From positions 6,265 through 70,264 of IMG/VR virus record IMGVR_UViG_3300032180_000006: 64,000 bases of DNA. One strand, written 5' to 3'. Within the stretch, counting starts at the first letter, position 1, and each line of letters begins with the position of its first letter. Of this stretch, positions 1-5,627 are shown in pieces. The stretch comes from a virus. Below the pieces are notes generated by a model. It did no database searches. It was not told the origin of the DNA and saw only the letters and a list, made by a program, of their open reading frames with translations. Position numbers and translations under genes: made by a program.

Positions 1-283
1 GCCCAGCAGCGGTAAAGCCATAGTTAAAGGCTGCCACACCTGCGCAGCTTTGCACGGGCAGGTCGTGCTCGCGCCAGCGTGGTCCAAATTTACCGCACGT
101 CTGTACAGTGTCAGCCGTGCGCACGGCCAGCAGCGCGGTGAAGGCGATTTTATTGGTAGTGTCCAACAGCTTGGGTCGCGGGCTGTCGGGTAGTGTTTGA
201 CAATGACCCATCGCACCGACTAAAAGAAACAGCAGCGCCAGCGCGACGAGGGCTATGGTTACGTCCTTGCTATCTTGTTGCAT
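1..283 (-). CDS. Hypothetical membrane/secreted protein (runs off window edge)
   Basis: ATG at 283 after GGAGG; MQQDSKDVTIALVALALLFLLVGAMG hydrophobic N-terminus; frame open to position 1. Confidence 0.6.
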   Translation of the reverse strand, partial: MQQDSKDVTIALVALALLFLLVGAMGHCQTLPDSPRPKLLDTTNKIAFTALLAVRTADTVQTCGKFGPRWREHDLPVQSCAGVAAFNYGFTAAG

Positions 284-389
284 TTTACTGCCTCCCTTGG
301 AACTGCGTTCGTTCAAGTGGCTGAGGGTTTGGCTGCCACTGGCTATGCGCTAGAACGCAATTCCAAGCGGAGCAGTAAAACTCCGCTTG
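284..389 (-). other. Structured intergenic RNA element with alternative hairpins overlapping the RBS
   Basis: UUGGAAUUGCGUUC/GAACGCAGUUCCAA stem; CAAGCGGAG/CUCCGCUUG hairpin competes with UUUUACUGC/GCAGUAAAA. Confidence 0.55.
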
Positions 390-391
390 TG

Positions 392-622
392 CTACCTGGA
401 TTTTCTGGCTGAGTGTATTACAGATGGCCCGCGCAGCGTGTCGGCGATGAAGAGATTCACTTGGTCTTCATGGCGATACTCAGCAATTCTTCGTTCGTCC
501 ACCCACTCGCCGTCGACGGCTGAGAAGCGTTGTGGCATCAGTTGATAGTAGAGTGAACCGGGAATCAGTTCAACGATGATACGACGATCACCATCGTTGG
601 CGATTAATTCAGATTTTGGCAT
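392..622 (-). CDS. Hypothetical early protein (76 aa, MPKSELI)
   Basis: AAGGAGAA RBS before ATG 622; the MQVASPAT extension in the ORF track is ribozyme sequence. Confidence 0.75.
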   Translation of the reverse strand: MPKSELIANDGDRRIIVELIPGSLYYQLMPQRFSAVDGEWVDERRIAEYRHEDQVNLFIADTLRGPSVIHSARKSR

Positions 623-644
623 TGCATTCTCCTTTAACTGCGTT

Positions 645-709
645 GCAGGGCTTGCAACCTGCATGCCGCATTACAGTCCGCGAGGCAAGGTGCGCGGGCT
701 GTGCTCTGC
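645..709 (-). ncRNA. Twister ribozyme, circularly permuted (P5-type), copy A
   Basis: GCAGAG-CA-[P1 hairpin]-UAAUGC-GGCAU-GCAGG UUGCAAGC CCUGC; T1 GCA/UGC; predicted cut 673/672. Confidence 0.88.
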
Positions 710-713
710 GTCT

Positions 714-929
714 TTACGTACCTGTGATTAAGGTGATGCGCCGCTTAACGCTGTCATCTTCAATTTGCAGCGCCTCAACCACATCATTGACGCACTCGTA
801 TAAGCGTTCTCTAACTTCCGTTTTGCTGAGTTTACTGGTGGGCTGGTCAGCGACAATACTGGCAAGCGCTGCGCCTGCATTGGCTACGCAGTCGTAAAAA
901 CTGCGTTCACGTTTACTACCGTCGGGCAT
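714..929 (-). CDS. Hypothetical early protein (71 aa, MPDGSK)
   Basis: CAGGAGAAGGGAA before ATG 929. Confidence 0.7.
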   Translation of the reverse strand: MPDGSKRERSFYDCVANAGAALASIVADQPTSKLSKTEVRERLYECVNDVVEALQIEDDSVKRRITLITGT

Positions 930-945
930 TTCCCTTCTCCTGTTC

Positions 946-1020
946 TGCCTCATGGCGGACTTGGAACCGCCTGTGTGCATTACAACCCGGCACGAAACCG
1001 GGCTGTCCTCTGCTTAGGCA
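946..1020 (-). ncRNA. Twister ribozyme, P5-type, copy B
   Basis: P5 UGCCU/AGGCA; GCAGAG-GA-CAGCCCGG..CCGGGUUG-UAAUGC; P4 GGCGG UUCCAAGU CCGCC; T1 GGA/UCC; cut 982/981. Confidence 0.9.
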
Positions 1021-1229
1021 ATAGGCTCCAGCGTTACCTTGAACCCGCTTACTGCATCGGGGTCAATACCAGCTTTGAGCATAGCAGCTTTGCTGACGTA
1101 GATACTGGTCAGCGCTGGGTCCTTGGCACCTTGCTCGGCGTCAAAGCGAACACTGTGCTTCTTCTCAATGCGAACGGGCAATAACTGAACGATGGATTTC
1201 GCTGTTATCGTACCCTGTTTAGTAGCCAT
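1014..1229 (-). CDS. Hypothetical early protein (71 aa)
   Basis: GGAGG RBS; stop codon lies 2-3 nt from the GCAGAG of ribozyme B. Confidence 0.75.
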   Translation of the reverse strand: MATKQGTITAKSIVQLLPVRIEKKHSVRFDAEQGAKDPALTSIYVSKAAMLKAGIDPDAVSGFKVTLEPIA

Positions 1230-1251
1230 GATTGGCCTCCATCTGCCTCAT

Positions 1252-1307
1252 GCGCGACTTGGGACGCGCTCTGTGCATTACAGCCCGGTTCGCGGGCTGC
1301 CCTCTGC
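1252..1307 (-). ncRNA. Twister ribozyme, P5-type, copy C
   Basis: GCAGAG-GG-CAGCCCG..CGGGCUG-UAAUGC; P4 GCGCG UCCCAAGU CGCGC; T1 GGG/CCC; cut 1280/1279. Confidence 0.88.
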
Positions 1308-1308
1308 T

Positions 1309-1569
1309 TTATGCTGCTGTGATGGGTTTGAATTCTAGCGCCGCGCATGTATCACAATCATTGCGCCGTTCATGTTGCGCATGTATCAGTAGGCTTTGGA
1401 TTGACGTATCGCCGTTGAACCATTGCTCACAGTGTGTGCACTGATAGCGCTTAACGCCATCGTTGCGGTTTTCAAGTTCAAAGTGCGCGCCAAGGTGCAG
1501 CGCCAGCGTTTCGAATTCTGCCAGCGTTACAGTGCGCAAACGCACATTGTAATTGATAGTTGGTGGCAT
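1309..1569 (-). CDS. Cys/His zinc-finger-like early protein
   Basis: AAGGAG RBS; YQCTHC...HAQH...CDTC. Confidence 0.7.
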   Translation of the reverse strand: MPPTINYNVRLRTVTLAEFETLALHLGAHFELENRNDGVKRYQCTHCEQWFNGDTSIQSLLIHAQHERRNDCDTCAALEFKPITAA

Positions 1570-1585
1570 TTCTGTTCTCCTTTTT

Positions 1586-1648
1586 AGCGTTGCAGGGCTT
1601 GCAACCTGCATGCCGCATTGCGCGGGCAGCGCCCGCGTGCTCTGCGCT
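1586..1648 (-). ncRNA. Twister ribozyme, P5-type, copy D
   Basis: GCAGAG-CA-CGCGGGC GCU GCCCGCG-CAAUGC-GGCAU-GCAGG UUGCAAGC CCUGC; cut C1620/A1619. Confidence 0.85.
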
Positions 1649-1654
1649 TACCTT

Positions 1655-2281
1655 TTACATACCCAGCTTGCCCGCGCACTCCGGGCCGAAACCGCTGGCT
1701 ACACTTTCAGGAACGGTGAGCGTTCGCCCGCATCTGCCGCACTTGCCCGCGTGCCATATTTCAAGCTCGGCGGGCAGTATGCCACCTACCAGTCGGCGCA
1801 GACTCCATGCCAACGCCTTAACAGGTATGCTGTCATTGTTCATGTGGCTCTTGCGGGTAAGCTGGAAGACGTTGTGCTTAATCATGCCGATGTAGACATA
1901 ATCGCCCGTGTTGTCCGGGCCACTTAGCAGGCTGACAAAGTACACCACACCGTTGTTCGCGTAGGCTGGGTTGTCCTTGGCACGGCGCACCTTATAGGTA
2001 TACCGTGCGCCCGTGGCTTTGCTGCGCAGCGTGAAGGTAGCGTTGCCGCCTGTAATGAACTGCAACGCTCGCTGTGCTGTGCTCAGGTGGGCAGGGCCAA
2101 CACCATCTAACGGTAACTGCTGCGCAGGTGCAGGCGGCACCATACGGTCAAATTCGTTGTCTGTGTCGTCAACCGCCATAGCGGGCTTTGCAGGTTTCCT
2201 GCGTGTCATGTCGGCTTGTGTGGTGTTAGCCATGCGCGTATAGAACGGTGCTTCGTTGACGTTGTGGTAACGGCGGGTCAT
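1655..2281 (-). CDS. DUF6011-like zinc-ribbon protein
   Basis: C-terminal CGRCGRTLTVPESVASGFGPEC; AAGGAG RBS before ATG 2281. Confidence 0.75.
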   Translation of the reverse strand: MTRRYHNVNEAPFYTRMANTTQADMTRRKPAKPAMAVDDTDNEFDRMVPPAPAQQLPLDGVGPAHLSTAQRALQFITGGNATFTLRSKATGARYTYKVRRAKDNPAYANNGVVYFVSLLSGPDNTGDYVYIGMIKHNVFQLTRKSHMNNDSIPVKALAWSLRRLVGGILPAELEIWHAGKCGRCGRTLTVPESVASGFGPECAGKLGM

Positions 2282-2298
2282 GGTAAATCTCCTTTGGA

Positions 2299-2402
2299 GC
2301 GTTGCAGGGCTTGCAACCTGCATGCCGCATTACAGCAGCCAAGCCCAGCGAGCAGGGAGTGATGTGCTGGGCTTGGTAACTACTGTGCTCTGCGAACTAC
2401 GC
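2299..2402 (-). ncRNA. Twister ribozyme, P5-type, copy E (long P1)
   Basis: P5 GCGU/ACGC; GCAGAG-CA-CAGUAG..CCAAGCCCAGC/GCUGGGCUUGG..CUGCUG-UAAUGC; same P4/L4 as A and D; cut 2332/2331. Confidence 0.88.
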
Positions 2403-2633
2403 GGCCAGCTTAACCAGCTTGGACGCCACAGCAAAGCGGATGAAGCTGTTGTCCGCGCCGACTTTCTTCAGCTTTGGAATGGCCTTATCGGTGGTCTTGC
2501 TGGTCAGGATGATGTCCATGCCCTTCTGCCGCTTGGTACCCTTGCGAGCACCGTGTTCGCGGTTGATGACGACGATTTTCTTGCCAGTGTAACGACCAAC
2601 GGAACGACGAGCAACTTTCTTTGAGTTTTTCAT
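2397..2633 (-). CDS. Small basic protein, possibly nucleic-acid binding
   Basis: 78 aa, Lys/Arg rich, AAGGA RBS. Confidence 0.7.
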   Translation of the reverse strand: MKNSKKVARRSVGRYTGKKIVVINREHGARKGTKRQKGMDIILTSKTTDKAIPKLKKVGADNSFIRFAVASKLVKLAA

Positions 2634-2684
2634 TTTTGTTTATCCTTTTCTTAGTTGAATTTCTGCGGCTGGTACCTTATACCT

Positions 2685-2740
2685 GAGCTCATCAGTGCCT
2701 GATTTTACAGGCAGACACGGCGCAATGCCGTGTTTCGCTC
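2685..2740 (-). ncRNA. Hammerhead ribozyme, type II
   Basis: GAGC-GAAAC-ACGGC AUUGC GCCGU-GUC-UGCCUG UAAAAU CAGGCA-CUGAUGA-GCUC: complete core and three stems; cut after C at 2714. Confidence 0.95.
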
Positions 2741-2745
2741 TTTTT

Positions 2746-2847
2746 CTAGAGCCATAGAAGACGGCGCAGGTAGTGCGCAAAGCCCGCTAAGTCTGTACAC
2801 AGACCGCGAGCAAAGTTTTGAGCGTAAAGCGCAAATCCTCGTGCCAT
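2746..2847 (-). CDS. Small ORF, 33 aa (MARGFALYAQ)
   Basis: AAGGAGGCGGCAAGAAATG leader, nearly identical to that of the upstream gene; below ORF-track cutoff. Confidence 0.55.
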   Translation of the reverse strand: MARGFALYAQNFARGLCTDLAGFAHYLRRLLWL

Positions 2848-2874
2848 TTCTTGCCGCCTCCTTAACGGTTTCAC

Positions 2875-3108
2875 TTACGCAATGCGAACCATTGCAATCA
2901 GCAGTTCGTTCGGTGTGCCTTTAGCGTAATCCAACCATTTGCCATCTTGCAGGCGTTGTGTGTACAGCATGACTTGTCCTTGACTGTCTACGTAGCTCGC
3001 ACCTTGCGAAATACGATAACGGCCAGTACGGTCGTGCGTCAGTGCAAACTCTTGCGGAAATTTGCCCATCGCTTCTAAAATCTTAAGGTCGTCATTTTCA
3101 TGCCACAT
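2875..3108 (-). CDS. Hypothetical early protein (MWHEND)
   Basis: AGGAGGCGGCAAGAAATG leader. Confidence 0.7.
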   Translation of the reverse strand: MWHENDDLKILEAMGKFPQEFALTHDRTGRYRISQGASYVDSQGQVMLYTQRLQDGKWLDYAKGTPNELLIAMVRIA

Positions 3109-3122
3109 TTCTTGCCGCCTCC

Positions 3123-3213
3123 TAGCGGTTTGCAGCACCTTATACAAGGTTGCCGTGCTTTCGCGGCAATCGCGCTGCATTTCATGCAGTGTATAAGGTG
3201 CTGCAAACCGCTA
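3123..3213. repeat. Perfect 24-bp inverted repeat enclosing two small hairpins
   Basis: TAGCGGTTTGCAGCACCTTATACA (3123-3146) / TGTATAAGGTGCTGCAAACCGCTA (3190-3213). Confidence 0.9.
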
Positions 3214-3457
3214 CGGGTTGCGCCTTGGCTAAAGTGCCGCCCGCTCGGCTGGGCATTGCGTGTACATCCGCTTTTATGCGCGTTACACGTCGCAGCCTGC
3301 TTCGCAGGTGGTTGGTACTTTGCCAAGGGCTTGTGGAGGCGGTGGCTTGCGCGCTTGAAAACCGCCGTAGCTTTCGGGCTGGCCCTCTGCAAGTGCGTTG
3401 CAGTTTAACCGTTTAACTCCGCCTGCCCTGTGTTGTCAATGAACTGTTACTGCACAT

Positions 3458-3486
3458 AATGTACGCCTGTAGTTACAGGCATGCAA
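3458..3486 (-). promoter_or_regulatory. Sigma70-like promoter with palindromic operator, upstream of the ribozyme operon
   Basis: TTGCAT-17 nt-TACATT; spacer contains GCCTGTAACTACAGGC. Confidence 0.55.
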
Positions 3487-3535
3487 GCAAAAAGTGAAAA
3501 ATAGGCCTGACTTTATCAGACCTGTTTTCAATCAC

Positions 3536-3709
3536 TTAGGCAGCGCGTACGAAAACTGACGCAACCCAGCACGGCGGGCTTAGTCGCAGGCGGGCTGCAT
3601 TAATGGCGCGCACATCTTCACCATATCGTAACAGAGTTTGCGTCTGTGCGATGCCCAGTTGTTGCCAGTGCCACCAGCTTTGTGACGCAACAAAATATTC
3701 TGTCTTCAT
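3536..3709 (-). CDS. Hypothetical protein
   Basis: ORF coupled (TAATG) to upstream gene. Confidence 0.5.
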   Translation of the reverse strand: MKTEYFVASQSWWHWQQLGIAQTQTLLRYGEDVRAINAARLRLSPPCWVASVFVRAA

Positions 3710-3936
3710 TATTTCACCGCCGTAACGCAACTGATAGCCGTACCACCATCTGCAAAGTTGGCGACAATAGCGTAACAGCGTGTATGCGTTTCGCGATCTT
3801 CAACGAACAATAAGGTGTGAGTGTGGTTCGTCCATTCAACATTGACCCACAATTTTGAAACCGCTTGCGACAAACCAAGGTTAAATGCCGCCAGCAGCCC
3901 AACAGCTACCCATATTCCTATAACAAATTTTTTCAT
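3709..3936 (-). CDS. Small membrane/secreted protein
   Basis: MKKFVIGIWVAVGLLAAF; GGGAG RBS. Confidence 0.6.
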   Translation of the reverse strand: MKKFVIGIWVAVGLLAAFNLGLSQAVSKLWVNVEWTNHTHTLLFVEDRETHTRCYAIVANFADGGTAISCVTAVK

Positions 3937-4127
3937 GCTGCGCTCCCTTTCTTTAGTTCTTCATTACTTGTCAGCGCGTAGTTTCTTAAGCGATGCTGTA
4001 TGTACAGCAAAAATCGTTCCTCCAAGTCCCTGATATTGTTCGAACGTGGTTCGGCGTTTGCCTGTACTTCCAAGGTGTACTTGGTAGCAAGATACAGCAG
4101 ATGGTCTAATACGCGCCTGTCGTCCAC
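3933..4127 (-). CDS. Hypothetical protein
   Basis: GAGG RBS, GTG start just downstream of a promoter. Confidence 0.5.
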   Translation of the reverse strand: MDDRRVLDHLLYLATKYTLEVQANAEPRSNNIRDLEERFLLYIQHRLRNYALTSNEELKKGSAA

Positions 4128-4147
4128 CGTCTTTTACCTCTACCAGT

Positions 4148-4176
4148 ATTATACCTTTATAACTACACCATTGCAA
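4148..4176 (-). promoter_or_regulatory. Sigma70-like promoter
   Basis: TTGCAA-17 nt-TATAAT; TGTAGTTATA in spacer. Confidence 0.7.
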
Positions 4177-4181
4177 TAGAT

Positions 4182-5627
4182 CTATGGTGTCTGGTGGCGC
4201 ACCTTAATATACGTGCGTAGAGCCTGCATCAACCCGCGCTGTGTGCGTTCTTTGCTGCGCATGGCGCGCAGTTTACTTTCATCTACGGTGTCGCGGGCTA
4301 TAAAGTGGTGGACGATCACGTGGCCGTGCTTGTTACCCTGCCTGCGCACGCGGCGGATAAACTGGTCGTAGTTTTCAAAGTCCCAAGGCACGGTATAGAA
4401 CGCTACGTGCTGGCACTGACCTTCTTGCAGATTAAGCCCATGCGCTACGCTGGCGACGTTACAGGCGAACAGCGACAGCTTATTGCCGTTCCACTGCTGT
4501 ATGATGCGCCGCGCATCGTCGGGCTTGACACCACCTTTAATGTATGGCGTCCGCGGGAACGCGGTCAGTATGCGTTCCAGGTCATGGTCAAACTCAAAGC
4601 CCAGCAGCAGCGGCACACCTTGCAGTTCTTCAACTAGATCTACCAGTGCCTCGGTCTTGGCATTGTGCAGCAATTTACTGATGCGGTTGATGCGCTCGTT
4701 TTTCAGTTCGTTAATATAGATTCCGCCGCTGGCAACTTGACAGCATTTCATACTGGCGACGGCTGCGTTCACGGCGGTAACTACGCTGCGATCTTCCAGT
4801 TCAGCTATCATTTCATCTTCAAGGTCATCGTAAATTTTGCGCGCTGCTGGTGGCAGTGCCACGCGAATAATGTTCGGTACTTCCTTGGGTACCTTGAGGT
4901 ACTCATTTTCATCCAGACTTAGCACCAGCGGCTTGATGGCGCGCTGGATTGCCTTTTCGCCGCCCTGCTTCAATCGCCAGTTGTACACGATTGGCCCGCT
5001 GCCTCCAGCGGGTATAAAATAATTCATGCGGAAATGCGTTATGTATTCGCCCAGCGCCTTTCCTAAGTCTAGAATGTAGATTTGCCCAAACAAATCCATG
5101 TACCCATTAGGATTCGGGCTGCCTGTAAGTATCCAGCGTCGTTGGAAACGTGATAAGAACGGCTTCAGCAGCTTGAACCGCCGTGTTCGCGTGTGTTTGA
5201 ACTTACTGCTTTCATCAATGATCAGCAATTCAGGCTTGATTATATTGAACGGTGACTGCCCGGTGCGATTGGCAAAGAACCACGGCAACCCATCAGGATT
5301 GATAATGTACACATCCGCGTCCGTATTAACGGCATCGTCCTTGTTATCGCCGTGCAGTATGTTCCAACGCAGGTGGCTGAACTGTTTCCACTGGTCAATC
5401 TGCACGGGCCATACTTCATACGCTGGCCGCAAAGGCGGCACCACCAGCGCACGACGAATCAGTTTATTTTTCAGCAGTATGTCTAGTGCTTTTAACGCGA
5501 TGCTGGTTTTTCCCAGTCCTGGGTCTAAGAACAGACCTGCGCTGCATTGTTTTAGCAGGAACTGCACTGCCATTTTTTGATACGGGTGTGGTATCCAATC
5601 CTGTTGCAAAAATGTATTTTCTGGCAT
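4182..5627 (-). CDS. SNF2-like (DEAD/SF2) helicase
   Basis: PGLGKT, IIDESS, LTGSP, HGLNLQ, RVRRQG motifs; start uncertain (5627 or 5771). Confidence 0.9.
   Translation of the reverse strand: MPENTFLQQDWIPHPYQKMAVQFLLKQCSAGLFLDPGLGKTSIALKALDILLKNKLIRRALVVPPLRPAYEVWPVQIDQWKQFSHLRWNILHGDNKDDAVNTDADVYIINPDGLPWFFANRTGQSPFNIIKPELLIIDESSKFKHTRTRRFKLLKPFLSRFQRRWILTGSPNPNGYMDLFGQIYILDLGKALGEYITHFRMNYFIPAGGSGPIVYNWRLKQGGEKAIQRAIKPLVLSLDENEYLKVPKEVPNIIRVALPPAARKIYDDLEDEMIAELEDRSVVTAVNAAVASMKCCQVASGGIYINELKNERINRISKLLHNAKTEALVDLVEELQGVPLLLGFEFDHDLERILTAFPRTPYIKGGVKPDDARRIIQQWNGNKLSLFACNVASVAHGLNLQEGQCQHVAFYTVPWDFENYDQFIRRVRRQGNKHGHVIVHHFIARDTVDESKLRAMRSKERTQRGLMQALRTYIKVRHQTP

What the first reader, a model, noticed from the sequence alone, without database searches (positions are those of the whole stretch)
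645..2402. Five permuted twisters show compensatory covariation in stems and pseudoknots
Seen: all share GCAGAG...[P1 hairpin]...YAAUGC...P4 with a CAAG-containing loop. The T1 pseudoknot covaries exactly: GCA/UGC (A, D, E), GGA/UCC (B), GGG/CCC (C). The likely T2 changes GC/GC to AC/GU in B and C. P4 changes GCAGG/CCUGC to GGCGG/CCGCC to GCGCG/CGCGC, and P1 ranges from a 17-nt hairpin to over 50 nt. A closing P5 is clear only in B (UGCCU/AGGCA) and E (GCGU/ACGC); it is weak or absent in A, C and D, and D has C rather than U at the cut site. Inference: structure is under selection, there are two sub-lineages (A/D/E and B/C), and these may include minimal P5-less variants with tuned rates.
Basis: partly seen in the sequence, partly recalled or inferred. 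Interest (0 to 1): 0.85.

Follow-up and report, generated by a model that had tools for sequence, protein, structure and literature searches.

The report
Five known-type twister ribozymes in phage
Five genuine copies of a known self-cutting RNA, the type-P5 twister ribozyme, sit between the small genes of one operon of an uncultivated soil phage and probably cut its long message into single-gene pieces, which is a tidy but ordinary example of an arrangement already known in phages.

Summary
All five elements (minus strand, 645-710, 954-1014, 1252-1308, 1592-1646, 2304-2394) pass Rfam's Twister-P5 gathering score (42.1-48.4 bits against 37.6). Among the five copies, 6 of 17 pairs carry changes on both sides, against 1.8 +/- 1.0 in shuffles (0 of 500).

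The two sub-lineages are real. A, D and E share identical cores, so the core holds only three independent sequence types.

In a sample of 97 distinct type-P5 twisters, five of them the window's own and the rest from other viral contigs:
- All three T1 variants recur, and so does the AC/GU T2 variant (30 of 97).
- C before the cut site occurs in 4 of 97.
- Flank pairing that could make a P5 is no better than in mismatched controls.

"P5-less" is therefore the norm in this sample rather than a special minimal variant. "Tuned rates" is untested.

Each ribozyme starts 0-8 nt after a stop codon (B overlaps it by one base), and its P4 helix ends 22-24 nt before the next start codon. A probable type II hammerhead heads the array.

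Arrays of 4-7 copies occur in other viral contigs. This scan had already noted larger ones on other DNA.

Verdict: new members of a known kind, low to moderate interest.

The parts
2875..3108 (-). First gene of the run (77 aa, no family match)
   Evidence: ORF list. I chose the start by reading a GGAGG-type ribosome-binding site. No Pfam or PHROG match.
2746..2847 (-). Possible 33-aa ORF ending 5 nt before the hammerhead (uncertain)
   Evidence: Read. It has the same ribosome-binding-site words as the gene at 3108. Not tested further.
2682..2740 (-). Probable type II hammerhead ribozyme; predicted cut after the C of GUC, between 2714 and 2713
   Evidence: RF02276 scores 33.9 bits, below the gathering score of 37. 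E is 0.0045 over the whole window and 0.0003 over 4.2 kb. The CUGAUGA, GAAA and GUC core words are all present (alignment). The minimum-free-energy fold gives the three stems, z = -4.1.
2397..2633 (-). Gene, 78 aa, basic protein
   Evidence: It is 69% identical over 61 residues to the C-terminus of a 277-aa ORF elsewhere in the same phage. No Pfam or PHROG match.
2304..2394 (-). Twister E (type P5; P1 of 53 nt); predicted cut between 2332 and 2331
   Evidence: RF02684, 42.1 bits. Own model, 76.3 bits. Starts 2 nt after the stop codon; P4 ends 22 nt before the ATG.
1655..2281 (-). Gene, 208 aa, DUF6011 / phrog_20259
   Evidence: Pfam PF19474, E = 4.6e-13. phrog_20259, E = 1.3e-45.
1592..1646 (-). 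Twister D (17-nt P1; C at -1); predicted cut between 1620 and 1619
   Evidence: RF02684, 48.4 bits. Starts 8 nt after the stop codon; P4 ends 22 nt before the ATG.
1309..1569 (-). Gene, 86 aa, cysteine/histidine-rich, no family match
1252..1308 (-). Twister C (T1 GGG/CCC, T2 AC/GU); predicted cut between 1280 and 1279
   Evidence: RF02684, 48.3 bits. The minimum-free-energy fold is the canonical P2/P1/P4, z = -3.0. Starts 0 nt after the stop codon; P4 ends 22 nt before the ATG.
1014..1229 (-). Gene, 71 aa, no family match
954..1014 (-). Twister B (T1 GGA/UCC, T2 AC/GU, 5-bp flank helix); predicted cut between 982 and 981
   Evidence: RF02684, 47.1 bits. The minimum-free-energy fold is canonical, z = -5.5. 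Its first base is the last base of the upstream stop codon; P4 ends 24 nt before the ATG. Flank duplex is -7.9 kcal/mol, the 3.8th percentile of controls.
714..929 (-). Gene, 71 aa, no family match
645..710 (-). Twister A; predicted cut between 673 and 672
   Evidence: RF02684, 47.6 bits. Starts 3 nt after the stop codon; P4 ends 22 nt before the ATG.
392..622 (-). Gene, 76 aa, last gene led by a twister

Best explanation
These are five intact type-P5 twister self-cleaving ribozymes. They lie in the sense strand of one leftward run of small genes in a 70-kb uncultivated soil phage.

Each occupies almost the whole gap between two genes. It begins 0-8 nt after the upstream stop codon (copy B overlaps it by one base), and its P4 helix ends 22-24 nt before the next start codon, just ahead of the ribosome-binding site. 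A probable type II hammerhead holds the same position one gene further upstream.

Most likely the run is transcribed as one long RNA, and each ribozyme cuts itself at the N-A step between P1 and P2.
- The upstream piece would end in the G+C-rich P1 hairpin with a 2',3'-cyclic phosphate.
- The downstream piece would begin with a 5'-hydroxyl, ten bases and the P4 hairpin, directly in front of its ribosome-binding site.
- After the cut the two halves are held together only by P2 (3-4 pairs) and T1 (3 pairs), so they should separate.

The result would be single-gene messages with hairpin-capped ends, whose stability and translation no longer depend on their neighbours.

Shown here: family membership, intact conserved positions, compensatory changes, and placement relative to the genes. 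Inferred: co-transcription, cleavage in vivo, and the effect on stability or translation.
For: - Family membership: 5 of 5 copies are above Rfam's gathering score over the full model.
- Covariation: all helices and both pseudoknots pair in all five copies, with compensatory changes.
- T1 in the wider sample: 85 of 97 distinct phage copies, including the window's five, have all three T1 pairs in nine different combinations.
- T2 in the wider sample: it is GC/GC in 63, AC/GU in 30 and GC/GU in 1 of 97.
- Whole structure on the 97 rows: 94.4% of cells paired against 71.8 +/- 0.8 in shuffles, covariation score 0.488 against 0.121, 0 of 500 shuffles as high, slid controls 26-46%. T1 was not part of the model that made that alignment.
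- RNA rather than DNA: G-U pairs in P1 of B and E would be mismatches on the other strand, and all copies share the orientation of the genes.
- Placement in the window: gaps from stop codon to ribozyme are 3, -1, 0, 8 and 2 nt. Gaps from P4 to ATG are 22, 24, 22, 22 and 22 nt.
- Placement in all 104 hits: 74 have the upstream stop codon within -2 to +6 nt. 72 have a ribosome-binding site plus start codon 13-35 nt downstream.
- Arrays elsewhere: of 71 other viral loci with hits, 13 hold 2 or more copies and 7 hold 3 or more, and within each of the 7 with 3 or more all copies lie on one strand. Rfam confirms 6, 4, 7 and 4 copies in four of them.
- Literature: clustered hammerheads flank single genes in prophages, three tandem sets cleaved during in vitro transcription, and processing into single-gene mRNAs was proposed (PMC3088659, passages). 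The review PMC6765202 repeats this proposal for twisters (passages).
Against: - No RNA data. No RNA run holds this phage, so neither co-transcription nor cleavage is shown.
- The promoter for the run is weak by consensus. My scan listed no minus-strand promoter between 3110 and 3500.
- The nearest-neighbour minimum-free-energy fold of A, D and E is not the canonical one (z = -0.1, -0.8, -2.8). It pairs the 5' GCAG with the 3' strand of P4. That program ignores pseudoknots.
- Tight packing between stop and start codons may simply reflect phage genome compaction. I ran no control for it.
- The gene-context counts use a simple heuristic: ORFs of at least 40 codons and a 4-nt match to a ribosome-binding-site word.
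It is therefore a sample and not a census.
Confidence: 0.8

Rival explanations
1. The copies differ in cleavage rate on purpose. Differences in P1 length, the -1 base, flank helices and competing folds would set how much of each junction is cut, and so the relative expression of the genes. It adds to the main reading and does not replace it.
For: - P1 ranges from 17 to 53 nt, and D has C at -1.
- Only B and E have flank helices (-7.9 and -8.1 kcal/mol, 3.8th and 3.3rd percentile of controls).
- A, D and E have a competing minimum-free-energy fold that B and C lack.
Against: - P1 length and sequence vary freely across the family.
- The -1 base is described as nonconserved (PMC5408937).
- Across 100 copies, flank helices are no better than in controls.
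- No kinetic data exist for these copies.
Confidence: 0.2
2. The gene-sized pieces released by two neighbouring cuts are joined end to end into circular mRNAs. The join could come from the ribozyme's reverse reaction or from a host RtcB-type ligase. The halves left on each end can re-form a twister fold.
For: - Each released piece would carry a 3' half at its 5' end and a 5' half at its 3' end.
- For the piece between E and D, the halves match in P2 and T1 (both GCA/UGC).
- Circular products were raised as a possibility for clustered hammerheads (PMC3088659).
Against: - For the other three junction pairs (D-C, C-B, B-A), the T1 words of the two halves do not match, by my reading.
- The phage encodes no RtcB and no Rnl2-type RNA ligase (0 matches each).
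- Perreault et al. looked for such products with hammerheads and did not detect them.
Confidence: 0.06
3. The repeated unit of ribozyme plus ribosome-binding site matters mainly at the DNA level. It would act as a portable gene junction that promotes recombination and shuffling of small genes between phages, with cleavage secondary.
For: - A, D and E share a 56-nt direct repeat that runs through the ribosome-binding site to the start codon. B and C share a 47-nt repeat.
- The genes between the ribozymes are unrelated orphans.
- Homologues of the DUF6011 gene in two other viral contigs have no ribozymes beside them.
Against: - A pure DNA repeat would not keep RNA pseudoknot pairs through compensatory changes.
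- It would not tolerate G-U pairs on one strand only.
- The conserved catalytic words are intact in all five copies.
Confidence: 0.1
4. The elements are decayed or inactive relics with no present role.
For: None beyond the lack of any activity data.
Against: - Five of five copies score above gathering over the full model.
- A, D and E keep near-identical cores while their P1 stems differ.
- Paired positions are kept in every copy.
Confidence: 0.03

Closest known systems
Type-P5 twister self-cleaving ribozyme (Rfam RF02684). The class is that of Roth et al. 2014, a paper not held here. I rely on review PMC5408937 (passages) and the Rfam model printed.
   Same: - Order of parts: P2 5' strand, L1, P1 hairpin, N-AA cut site, P2 3' strand, T2 dinucleotide, P4 with its CAAG loop.
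- All conserved words are present.
- T1 has three pairs and T2 has two.
- Scores are above gathering in 5 of 5 copies.
   Different: Nothing that sets these copies apart from other phage copies. The T1 words GCA/UGC (8 of 97) and GGA/UCC (5 of 97) are minority variants. The AC/GU T2 with a 3-pair P2 is seen in 27 of 97. A nearby P5 helix is mostly absent, here as elsewhere.
Clustered hammerhead ribozymes flanking genes in prophages (Perreault et al. 2011, PMC3088659; passages read)
   Same: Several self-cleaving ribozymes lie close together and flank single genes or short gene blocks of phage origin. Processing of a long transcript into single-gene mRNAs was proposed. One probable hammerhead takes part in this array too.
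   Different: The ribozyme class here is mainly twister. The placement is very regular: stop codon, ribozyme, ribosome-binding site, start codon. Those authors showed cleavage in vitro, whereas nothing has been assayed here.
Larger twister arrays in phage operons noted earlier by this scan on other DNA (AI notes)
   Same: Type-P5 twisters sit one per gene junction in runs of small phage genes, and the notes give the same functional reading.
   Different: Those notes report 7 to about 30 copies, against five plus one hammerhead here. I did not check those genomes. I did confirm arrays of 4-7 copies in four other viral contigs.
RNase III processing of T7 early polycistronic mRNA, and synthetic ribozyme insulators placed before ribosome-binding sites (both recalled from general knowledge, not from any call)
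   Same: Both cut a long message between cistrons so that each cistron has a defined, hairpin-capped end.
   Different: T7 uses a host protein enzyme. The synthetic parts are engineered. Here the cut would be made by the RNA itself in a natural phage.

Membership tests
Twister ribozyme, type P5 (RF02684) | Covariance-model score at or above Rfam's gathering score (37.6 bits) over the full model | tested here: met
   5 of 5 copies score 42.1-48.4 bits with model positions 1-58 of 58 matched.
Twister ribozyme, type P5 (RF02684) | The essential helices P1, P2 and P4 (PMC5408937) | tested here: met
   Cells paired: P1 base 100%, P4 100%, and the three inner P2 pairs 5 of 5. The outer P2 pair forms in A, D and E only.
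Twister ribozyme, type P5 (RF02684) | Pseudoknot T1: three Watson-Crick pairs between L1 and L4 | tested here: met
   15 of 15 cells paired, and 2 of 3 pairs are changed on both sides among the five copies. In the wider sample, 85 of 97 distinct copies pair fully.
Twister ribozyme, type P5 (RF02684) | Pseudoknot T2: two pairs between the L2 dinucleotide and L4 | tested here: met
   GC/GC in A, D and E. AC/GU in B and C, one column earlier. In the MAFFT register only 3 of 5 score as paired.
Twister ribozyme, type P5 (RF02684) | Strongly conserved nucleotides of L1 and L4, and the adenine 3' of the scissile bond | tested here: met
   The words GCAGAG, AAUGC, GU..CAAG and the closing C are invariant in the five copies.
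Twister ribozyme, type P5 (RF02684) | Chain ends enter through P5 (circular permutation); a P5 helix closes the junction | tested here: inconclusive
   The order of parts is that of type P5 in 5 of 5 copies. A flank helix is present in B (-7.9 kcal/mol) and E (-8.1) but is weak in A, C and D (-2.1, -4.9, -2.2). Over 100 copies, own flanks average -3.1 against -2.95 for mismatched flanks. Only 14-nt flanks were tested.
Twister ribozyme, type P5 (RF02684) | Self-cleavage at the N-A step, giving 2',3'-cyclic phosphate and 5'-OH ends | not testable with these tools
   No RNA run is listed for this phage.
Hammerhead ribozyme, type II (RF02276) | Score at or above the gathering score (37 bits) | tested here: not met
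   33.9 bits. E is 0.0045 over the whole window and 0.0003 over 4.2 kb.
Hammerhead ribozyme, type II (RF02276) | Conserved core (CUGAUGA, GAAA, cleavage triplet) enclosed by three stems, open at stem II | tested here: met
   The core words are all present in the alignment. The minimum-free-energy fold gives stem I (6 bp), stem III (7 bp) and an open stem II (4 bp), z = -4.1.

The most novel reading that the evidence does not exclude
The placement is functional and not just compact. The ribozyme's P2 strand and T1 bases begin at, or overlap, the upstream stop codon. This holds for 74 of 104 phage copies within -2 to +6 nt, and for 4 of the window's 5; D starts 8 nt after its stop. A ribosome terminating there would cover these bases and keep the twister unfolded. 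Cleavage would then be coupled to translation of the upstream gene. A junction would be cut only once the upstream cistron is no longer occupied. Mixed T1 words within one array would act as addresses that stop halves of neighbouring copies from pairing with each other.
Probability: 0.12. Interest if true: 0.55.

Novelty: new member of a known kind. Interest (0 to 1): 0.25.

Why it matters
The biological role of bacterial and phage twisters is still described as speculative (PMC5408937; PMC6765202). A short, regular array such as this one, with five twisters of three T1 types, one probable hammerhead and six small genes in 2.4 kb, is a convenient natural test piece. One in vitro transcript would show whether all junctions cut. 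One reporter construct would show whether cutting changes the stability or translation of each cistron.

As a discovery it adds little. The family, its covariation and the clustered arrangement in phages are already in print or in Rfam, and this scan has already noted larger arrays.

The by-products that may be worth more are the sample-wide regularities: the stop codon abuts position 1, there are two P2/T2 registers, and there is no general P5. I could not check these against Roth 2014 or Felletti 2017, which are not held here.

Tried and rejected
Searches and checks that led nowhere:
- blastn of 1-4200 against 50,697 phage records gave no match.
- Relatives of the DUF6011 gene in viral contigs gave 2 loci. 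Neither holds any ribozyme at E <= 0.1, only four tRNAs in one of them. Synteny therefore gave no homologous ribozymes.
- Relatives of the SNF2 helicase gave none.
- Sequencing runs: no RNA holder is listed. Two soil-metagenome DNA runs from two studies hold the stretch, and one of them may be its source.
- Laying their contigs showed no other letters in the covered parts. The one difference was a 4-base omission at 2031 in a single low-depth contig. There were no ends or joints of use. Natural variants could not be used as a covariation test.
- RtcB (PF01139) and RNA_ligase (PF09414) gave 0 matches each in the phage.

Readings considered and set aside:
- That the five copies give five independent observations. 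A and E are identical in the core and D is nearly so.
- That AC/GU in T2, or C at -1, marks unusual variants. Both recur in other phages.
- That lack of a P5 marks minimal variants.
- The nearest-neighbour fold as a test of the ribozyme fold in A, D and E. The program cannot see pseudoknots.

Literature:
- Roth et al. 2014 (by DOI and by PMC id) and Felletti et al. 2017 are not held. What I say about the original consensus comes from review passages and the Rfam model.
- Supplementary files were not opened. The figures and supplements of Perreault 2011 may show placements like those I counted.
- Four full-text searches found no paper describing the stop-codon placement or twister arrays in DNA phages. 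The library lacks most subscription journals, so this is weak evidence that the point is unpublished.
Full report
WHAT IS THERE. The window is bases 6265-70264 of a 70,264-base virus record that CheckV rates as complete. Two soil-metagenome DNA runs hold the stretch. Rfam's cmscan of the whole window, both strands, gave exactly five matches at or above gathering score. All are Twister-P5 (RF02684), all on the minus strand, all covering model positions 1-58 of 58. They lie at 1593-1646 (48.4 bits), 1253-1308 (48.3), 646-710 (47.6), 955-1014 (47.1) and 2305-2394 (42.1), against a gathering score of 37.6. The permissive scan added one Hammerhead_II match at 2682-2740 on the minus strand (33.9 bits, gathering 37, E = 0.0045) and two chance-level matches elsewhere. 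Over 4.2 kb the hammerhead has E = 0.0003, and all its core words are present. The rest of the record holds no further twister. The family rang in 0 of 14 control genomes.

CHECK OF THE OBSERVATION. I extracted the RNA strand of each copy with its flanks and aligned the five.
- T1 is GCA/UGC in A, D and E, GGA/UCC in B, and GGG/CCC in C.
- T2 is GC/GC in A, D and E and AC/GU in B and C.
- P4 is GCAGG/CCUGC, GGCGG/CCGCC and GCGCG/CGCGC.
- P1 is a 17-nt hairpin in D and 53 nt in E.
- D has C at the -1 position.
- Flank helices UGCCU/AGGCA (B) and GCGU/ACGC (E) exist, with nothing comparable in A, C and D.

Counting pairs on the five-copy alignment with both pseudoknots written in gave these figures:
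- 92.9% of 84 cells were paired, against 80.2 +/- 2.5 in shuffles (0 of 500).
- 6 of 17 pairs were changed on both sides, against 1.8 +/- 1.0 (0 of 500).
- With the partners slid by 1-3 columns, 27-35% of cells paired and 0-3 pairs were changed on both sides.

Two refinements follow. First, A and E are identical in 44 core columns and D differs only at the base of P1 and at -1 (identity 0.89). The core therefore gives three independent sequence types, and only P1 gives five. Second, B and C have a 3-pair P2 followed directly by T2, while A, D and E have a 4-pair P2. For that reason the MAFFT register scores T2 as paired in only 3 of 5. I read the B and C pairs (A-U and C-G) directly.

IS ANY OF THIS UNUSUAL FOR THE FAMILY? 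I scanned the viral contig collection with a pattern made of the conserved twister words. I built a covariance model from the five copies, with P2, the P1 base and P4 only and no pseudoknots, and searched the loci with it. This gave 104 hits at E <= 0.01 in 72 sources, including the window's five, and 97 distinct rows.

On that alignment 94.4% of cells pair, against 71.8 +/- 0.8 in shuffles. The covariation score is 0.488 against 0.121 (0 of 500), and slid controls give 26-46%. The T1 columns were not in the model, yet they pair in 94.1% of cells. The middle T1 pair is U-A in 38 rows, G-C in 34, C-G in 10 and A-U in 6.
- T1: all three pairs form in 85 of 97 rows, in nine combinations. These include GCA/UGC (8), GGA/UCC (5) and GGG/CCC (25).
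- T2: GC/GC in 63 rows, AC/GU in 30, GC/GU in 1, and unpaired or ambiguous in 3. Both P2/T2 registers are common.
- The -1 base: U in 93 rows and C in 4.

The review PMC5408937 (passages) calls that uridine 'less conserved' and 'nonconserved', and describes cleavage with 2-aminopurine in its place. It lists P0, P3 and P5 as optional. It describes T1 as three Watson-Crick pairs and T2 as the pairing of a conserved GC in L2.

For P5 I computed the best duplex between 14-nt flanks for 100 hits with usable flanks. Own flanks averaged -3.1 kcal/mol and mismatched flank pairs -2.95. The shares at or below -6 kcal/mol were 14% and 10.5%. The window's B (-7.9) and E (-8.1) fall in the best 4% of controls. 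A (-2.1), D (-2.2) and C (-4.9) do not.

The caveat is that only short flanks were tested, and the sample is biased by the pattern that found it.

SUB-LINEAGES. Direct-repeat search joins A, D and E in a 56-nt family that runs from the P2 3' strand through P4 and the ribosome-binding site to the start codon. It joins B and C in a 47-nt family. Core identity is 0.89-1.00 within A/D/E, 0.77 for B-C, and 0.55-0.68 between the groups. C is closer to a copy in another viral contig (0.82) than to A (0.66). The two groups thus correspond to two widespread types, not to divergence inside this phage.

CONTEXT. On the minus strand the order of parts is as follows:
- gene 3108-2875
- a possible 33-aa ORF, 2847-2746
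- the hammerhead
- gene 2633-2397
- twister E
- gene 2281-1655 (DUF6011, phrog_20259)
- twister D
- gene 1569-1309
- twister C
- gene 1229-1014
- twister B
- gene 929-714
- twister A
- gene 622-392
- a long hairpin
- a membrane-protein-like gene that runs past the window's start

The other genes in the run have no Pfam or PHROG match. The 78-aa protein resembles the C-terminus of a 277-aa ORF of the same phage (69% over 61 residues).

The ribozymes start 3, -1, 0, 8 and 2 nt after the upstream stop codon (in the order A to E). Their P4 helices end 22, 24, 22, 22 and 22 nt before the next ATG, which is preceded by a ribosome-binding site. The same heuristic was applied to all 104 hits. It found the upstream stop codon within -2 to +6 nt in 74, and a ribosome-binding site plus start codon 13-35 nt downstream in 72. 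I ran no control for this.

Arrays recur. Of 71 other loci with hits, 13 hold 2 or more copies and 7 hold 3 or more, and within each of the 7 with 3 or more all copies lie on one strand at gene-sized spacing. Rfam confirms 6, 4, 7 and 4 copies in four of them.

HOW IT MOST LIKELY WORKS. The run is probably one transcript. A terminator-like hairpin on the minus strand at 3523-3503 precedes it, and no terminator-like site on that strand separates the genes except weak internal ones. The promoter is not established.

Each twister would cut at the N-A step between P1 and P2. The upstream mRNA would then end in the P1 hairpin. The downstream mRNA would begin with ten bases and the P4 hairpin, just before its ribosome-binding site.

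This reading was proposed for clustered hammerheads in prophages, where three tandem sets cleaved during in vitro transcription (PMC3088659, passages). It has been repeated for twisters (PMC6765202, passages). Cleavage, co-transcription and the effect on expression are all inferred here. No RNA run is listed for this phage, and I mention that only as something tried.

Nearest-neighbour folding gives the canonical P2/P1/P4 fold for B and C (z = -5.5 and -3.0). For A, D and E it gives a competing fold in which the 5' GCAG pairs with the 3' strand of P4. The program cannot see pseudoknots, so this is a lead at most.

RIVALS.
- Rate tuning is possible but untested.
- Circularisation of the released pieces is conceivable, because each piece carries two complementary ribozyme halves. 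However, T1 words match for only one of the four neighbouring pairs (E-D), by my reading. The phage has no RtcB or Rnl2-type ligase. Perreault et al. did not detect such products.
- A DNA-level role as a recombination junction fits the repeats and the orphan genes. It does not explain compensatory changes in pseudoknots or the strand-specific G-U pairs.

NOVELTY AND VERDICT. These are new members of a known family in a known kind of arrangement. This scan had already noted larger twister arrays, from 7 to about 30 copies, on other DNA. Those are AI notes that I did not check. Earlier notes on this same genome describe the operon, the hammerhead and the neighbouring hairpins.

Interest is 0.25.

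Noticed in passing
window 2682-2740 (-): Probable type II hammerhead in the same positional role as the twisters. It starts 5 nt after the stop codon of a 33-aa ORF and ends 48 nt before the next ATG. It scores 33.9 bits, just under Rfam's gathering score of 37.
   Followed up: partly
window 280-392 (-): The spacer after the last twister-led gene folds into one long, very stable hairpin (-50.5 kcal/mol, z = -5.4). The hairpin covers the ribosome-binding site of the next gene. It matches no Rfam family beyond chance. It may be an RNase III-type processing site or a translational lock.
   Followed up: partly
window 3121-3215: A long, near-perfect inverted repeat lies just upstream of the first gene of the run. 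Not analysed.
   Followed up: no
A2 alignment of 97 distinct viral type-P5 twisters (loci L009-L127 plus the window): There are two registers of the P2/T2 junction. In 39 rows a 3-pair P2 is followed directly by T2 (AC/GU in 27, GC/GC in 11, GC/GU in 1). In 55 rows a 4-pair P2 comes before T2 (GC/GC in 52, AC/GU in 3). The review says that changing the number of P2 pairs might disturb the active site, so this may deserve a check against the published consensus.
   Followed up: partly
104 twister hits in the window and loci L009-L127: The upstream stop codon lies within -2 to +6 nt of ribozyme position 1 in 74 of 104 hits and often overlaps it. A ribosome-binding site plus start codon follows P4 by 13-35 nt in 72 of 104. 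This rests on a heuristic with no control.
   Followed up: partly
window 2397-2633 (-) and L006 3154-3987 (-): The 78-aa basic protein of the array is a stand-alone copy of the C-terminal 61 residues of a 277-aa protein encoded about 5 kb further along the same strand (69% identity, E = 8e-27). Neither has a family match.
   Followed up: partly
window twisters A, D and E (645-710, 1592-1646, 2304-2394): In these three copies the L4 loop bases and the bases just after P4 can form a 6-bp alternative hairpin (my reading). In addition, the 5' GCAG can pair with the 3' strand of P4 (minimum-free-energy folds). B and C lack both alternatives.
   Followed up: partly
L025 434-493 and 2764-2823 (-): Two copies of another phage's array carry changes at the otherwise near-invariant first T1 pair. 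One is compensated (A-U in place of G-C). Both pass Rfam's gathering score.
   Followed up: no
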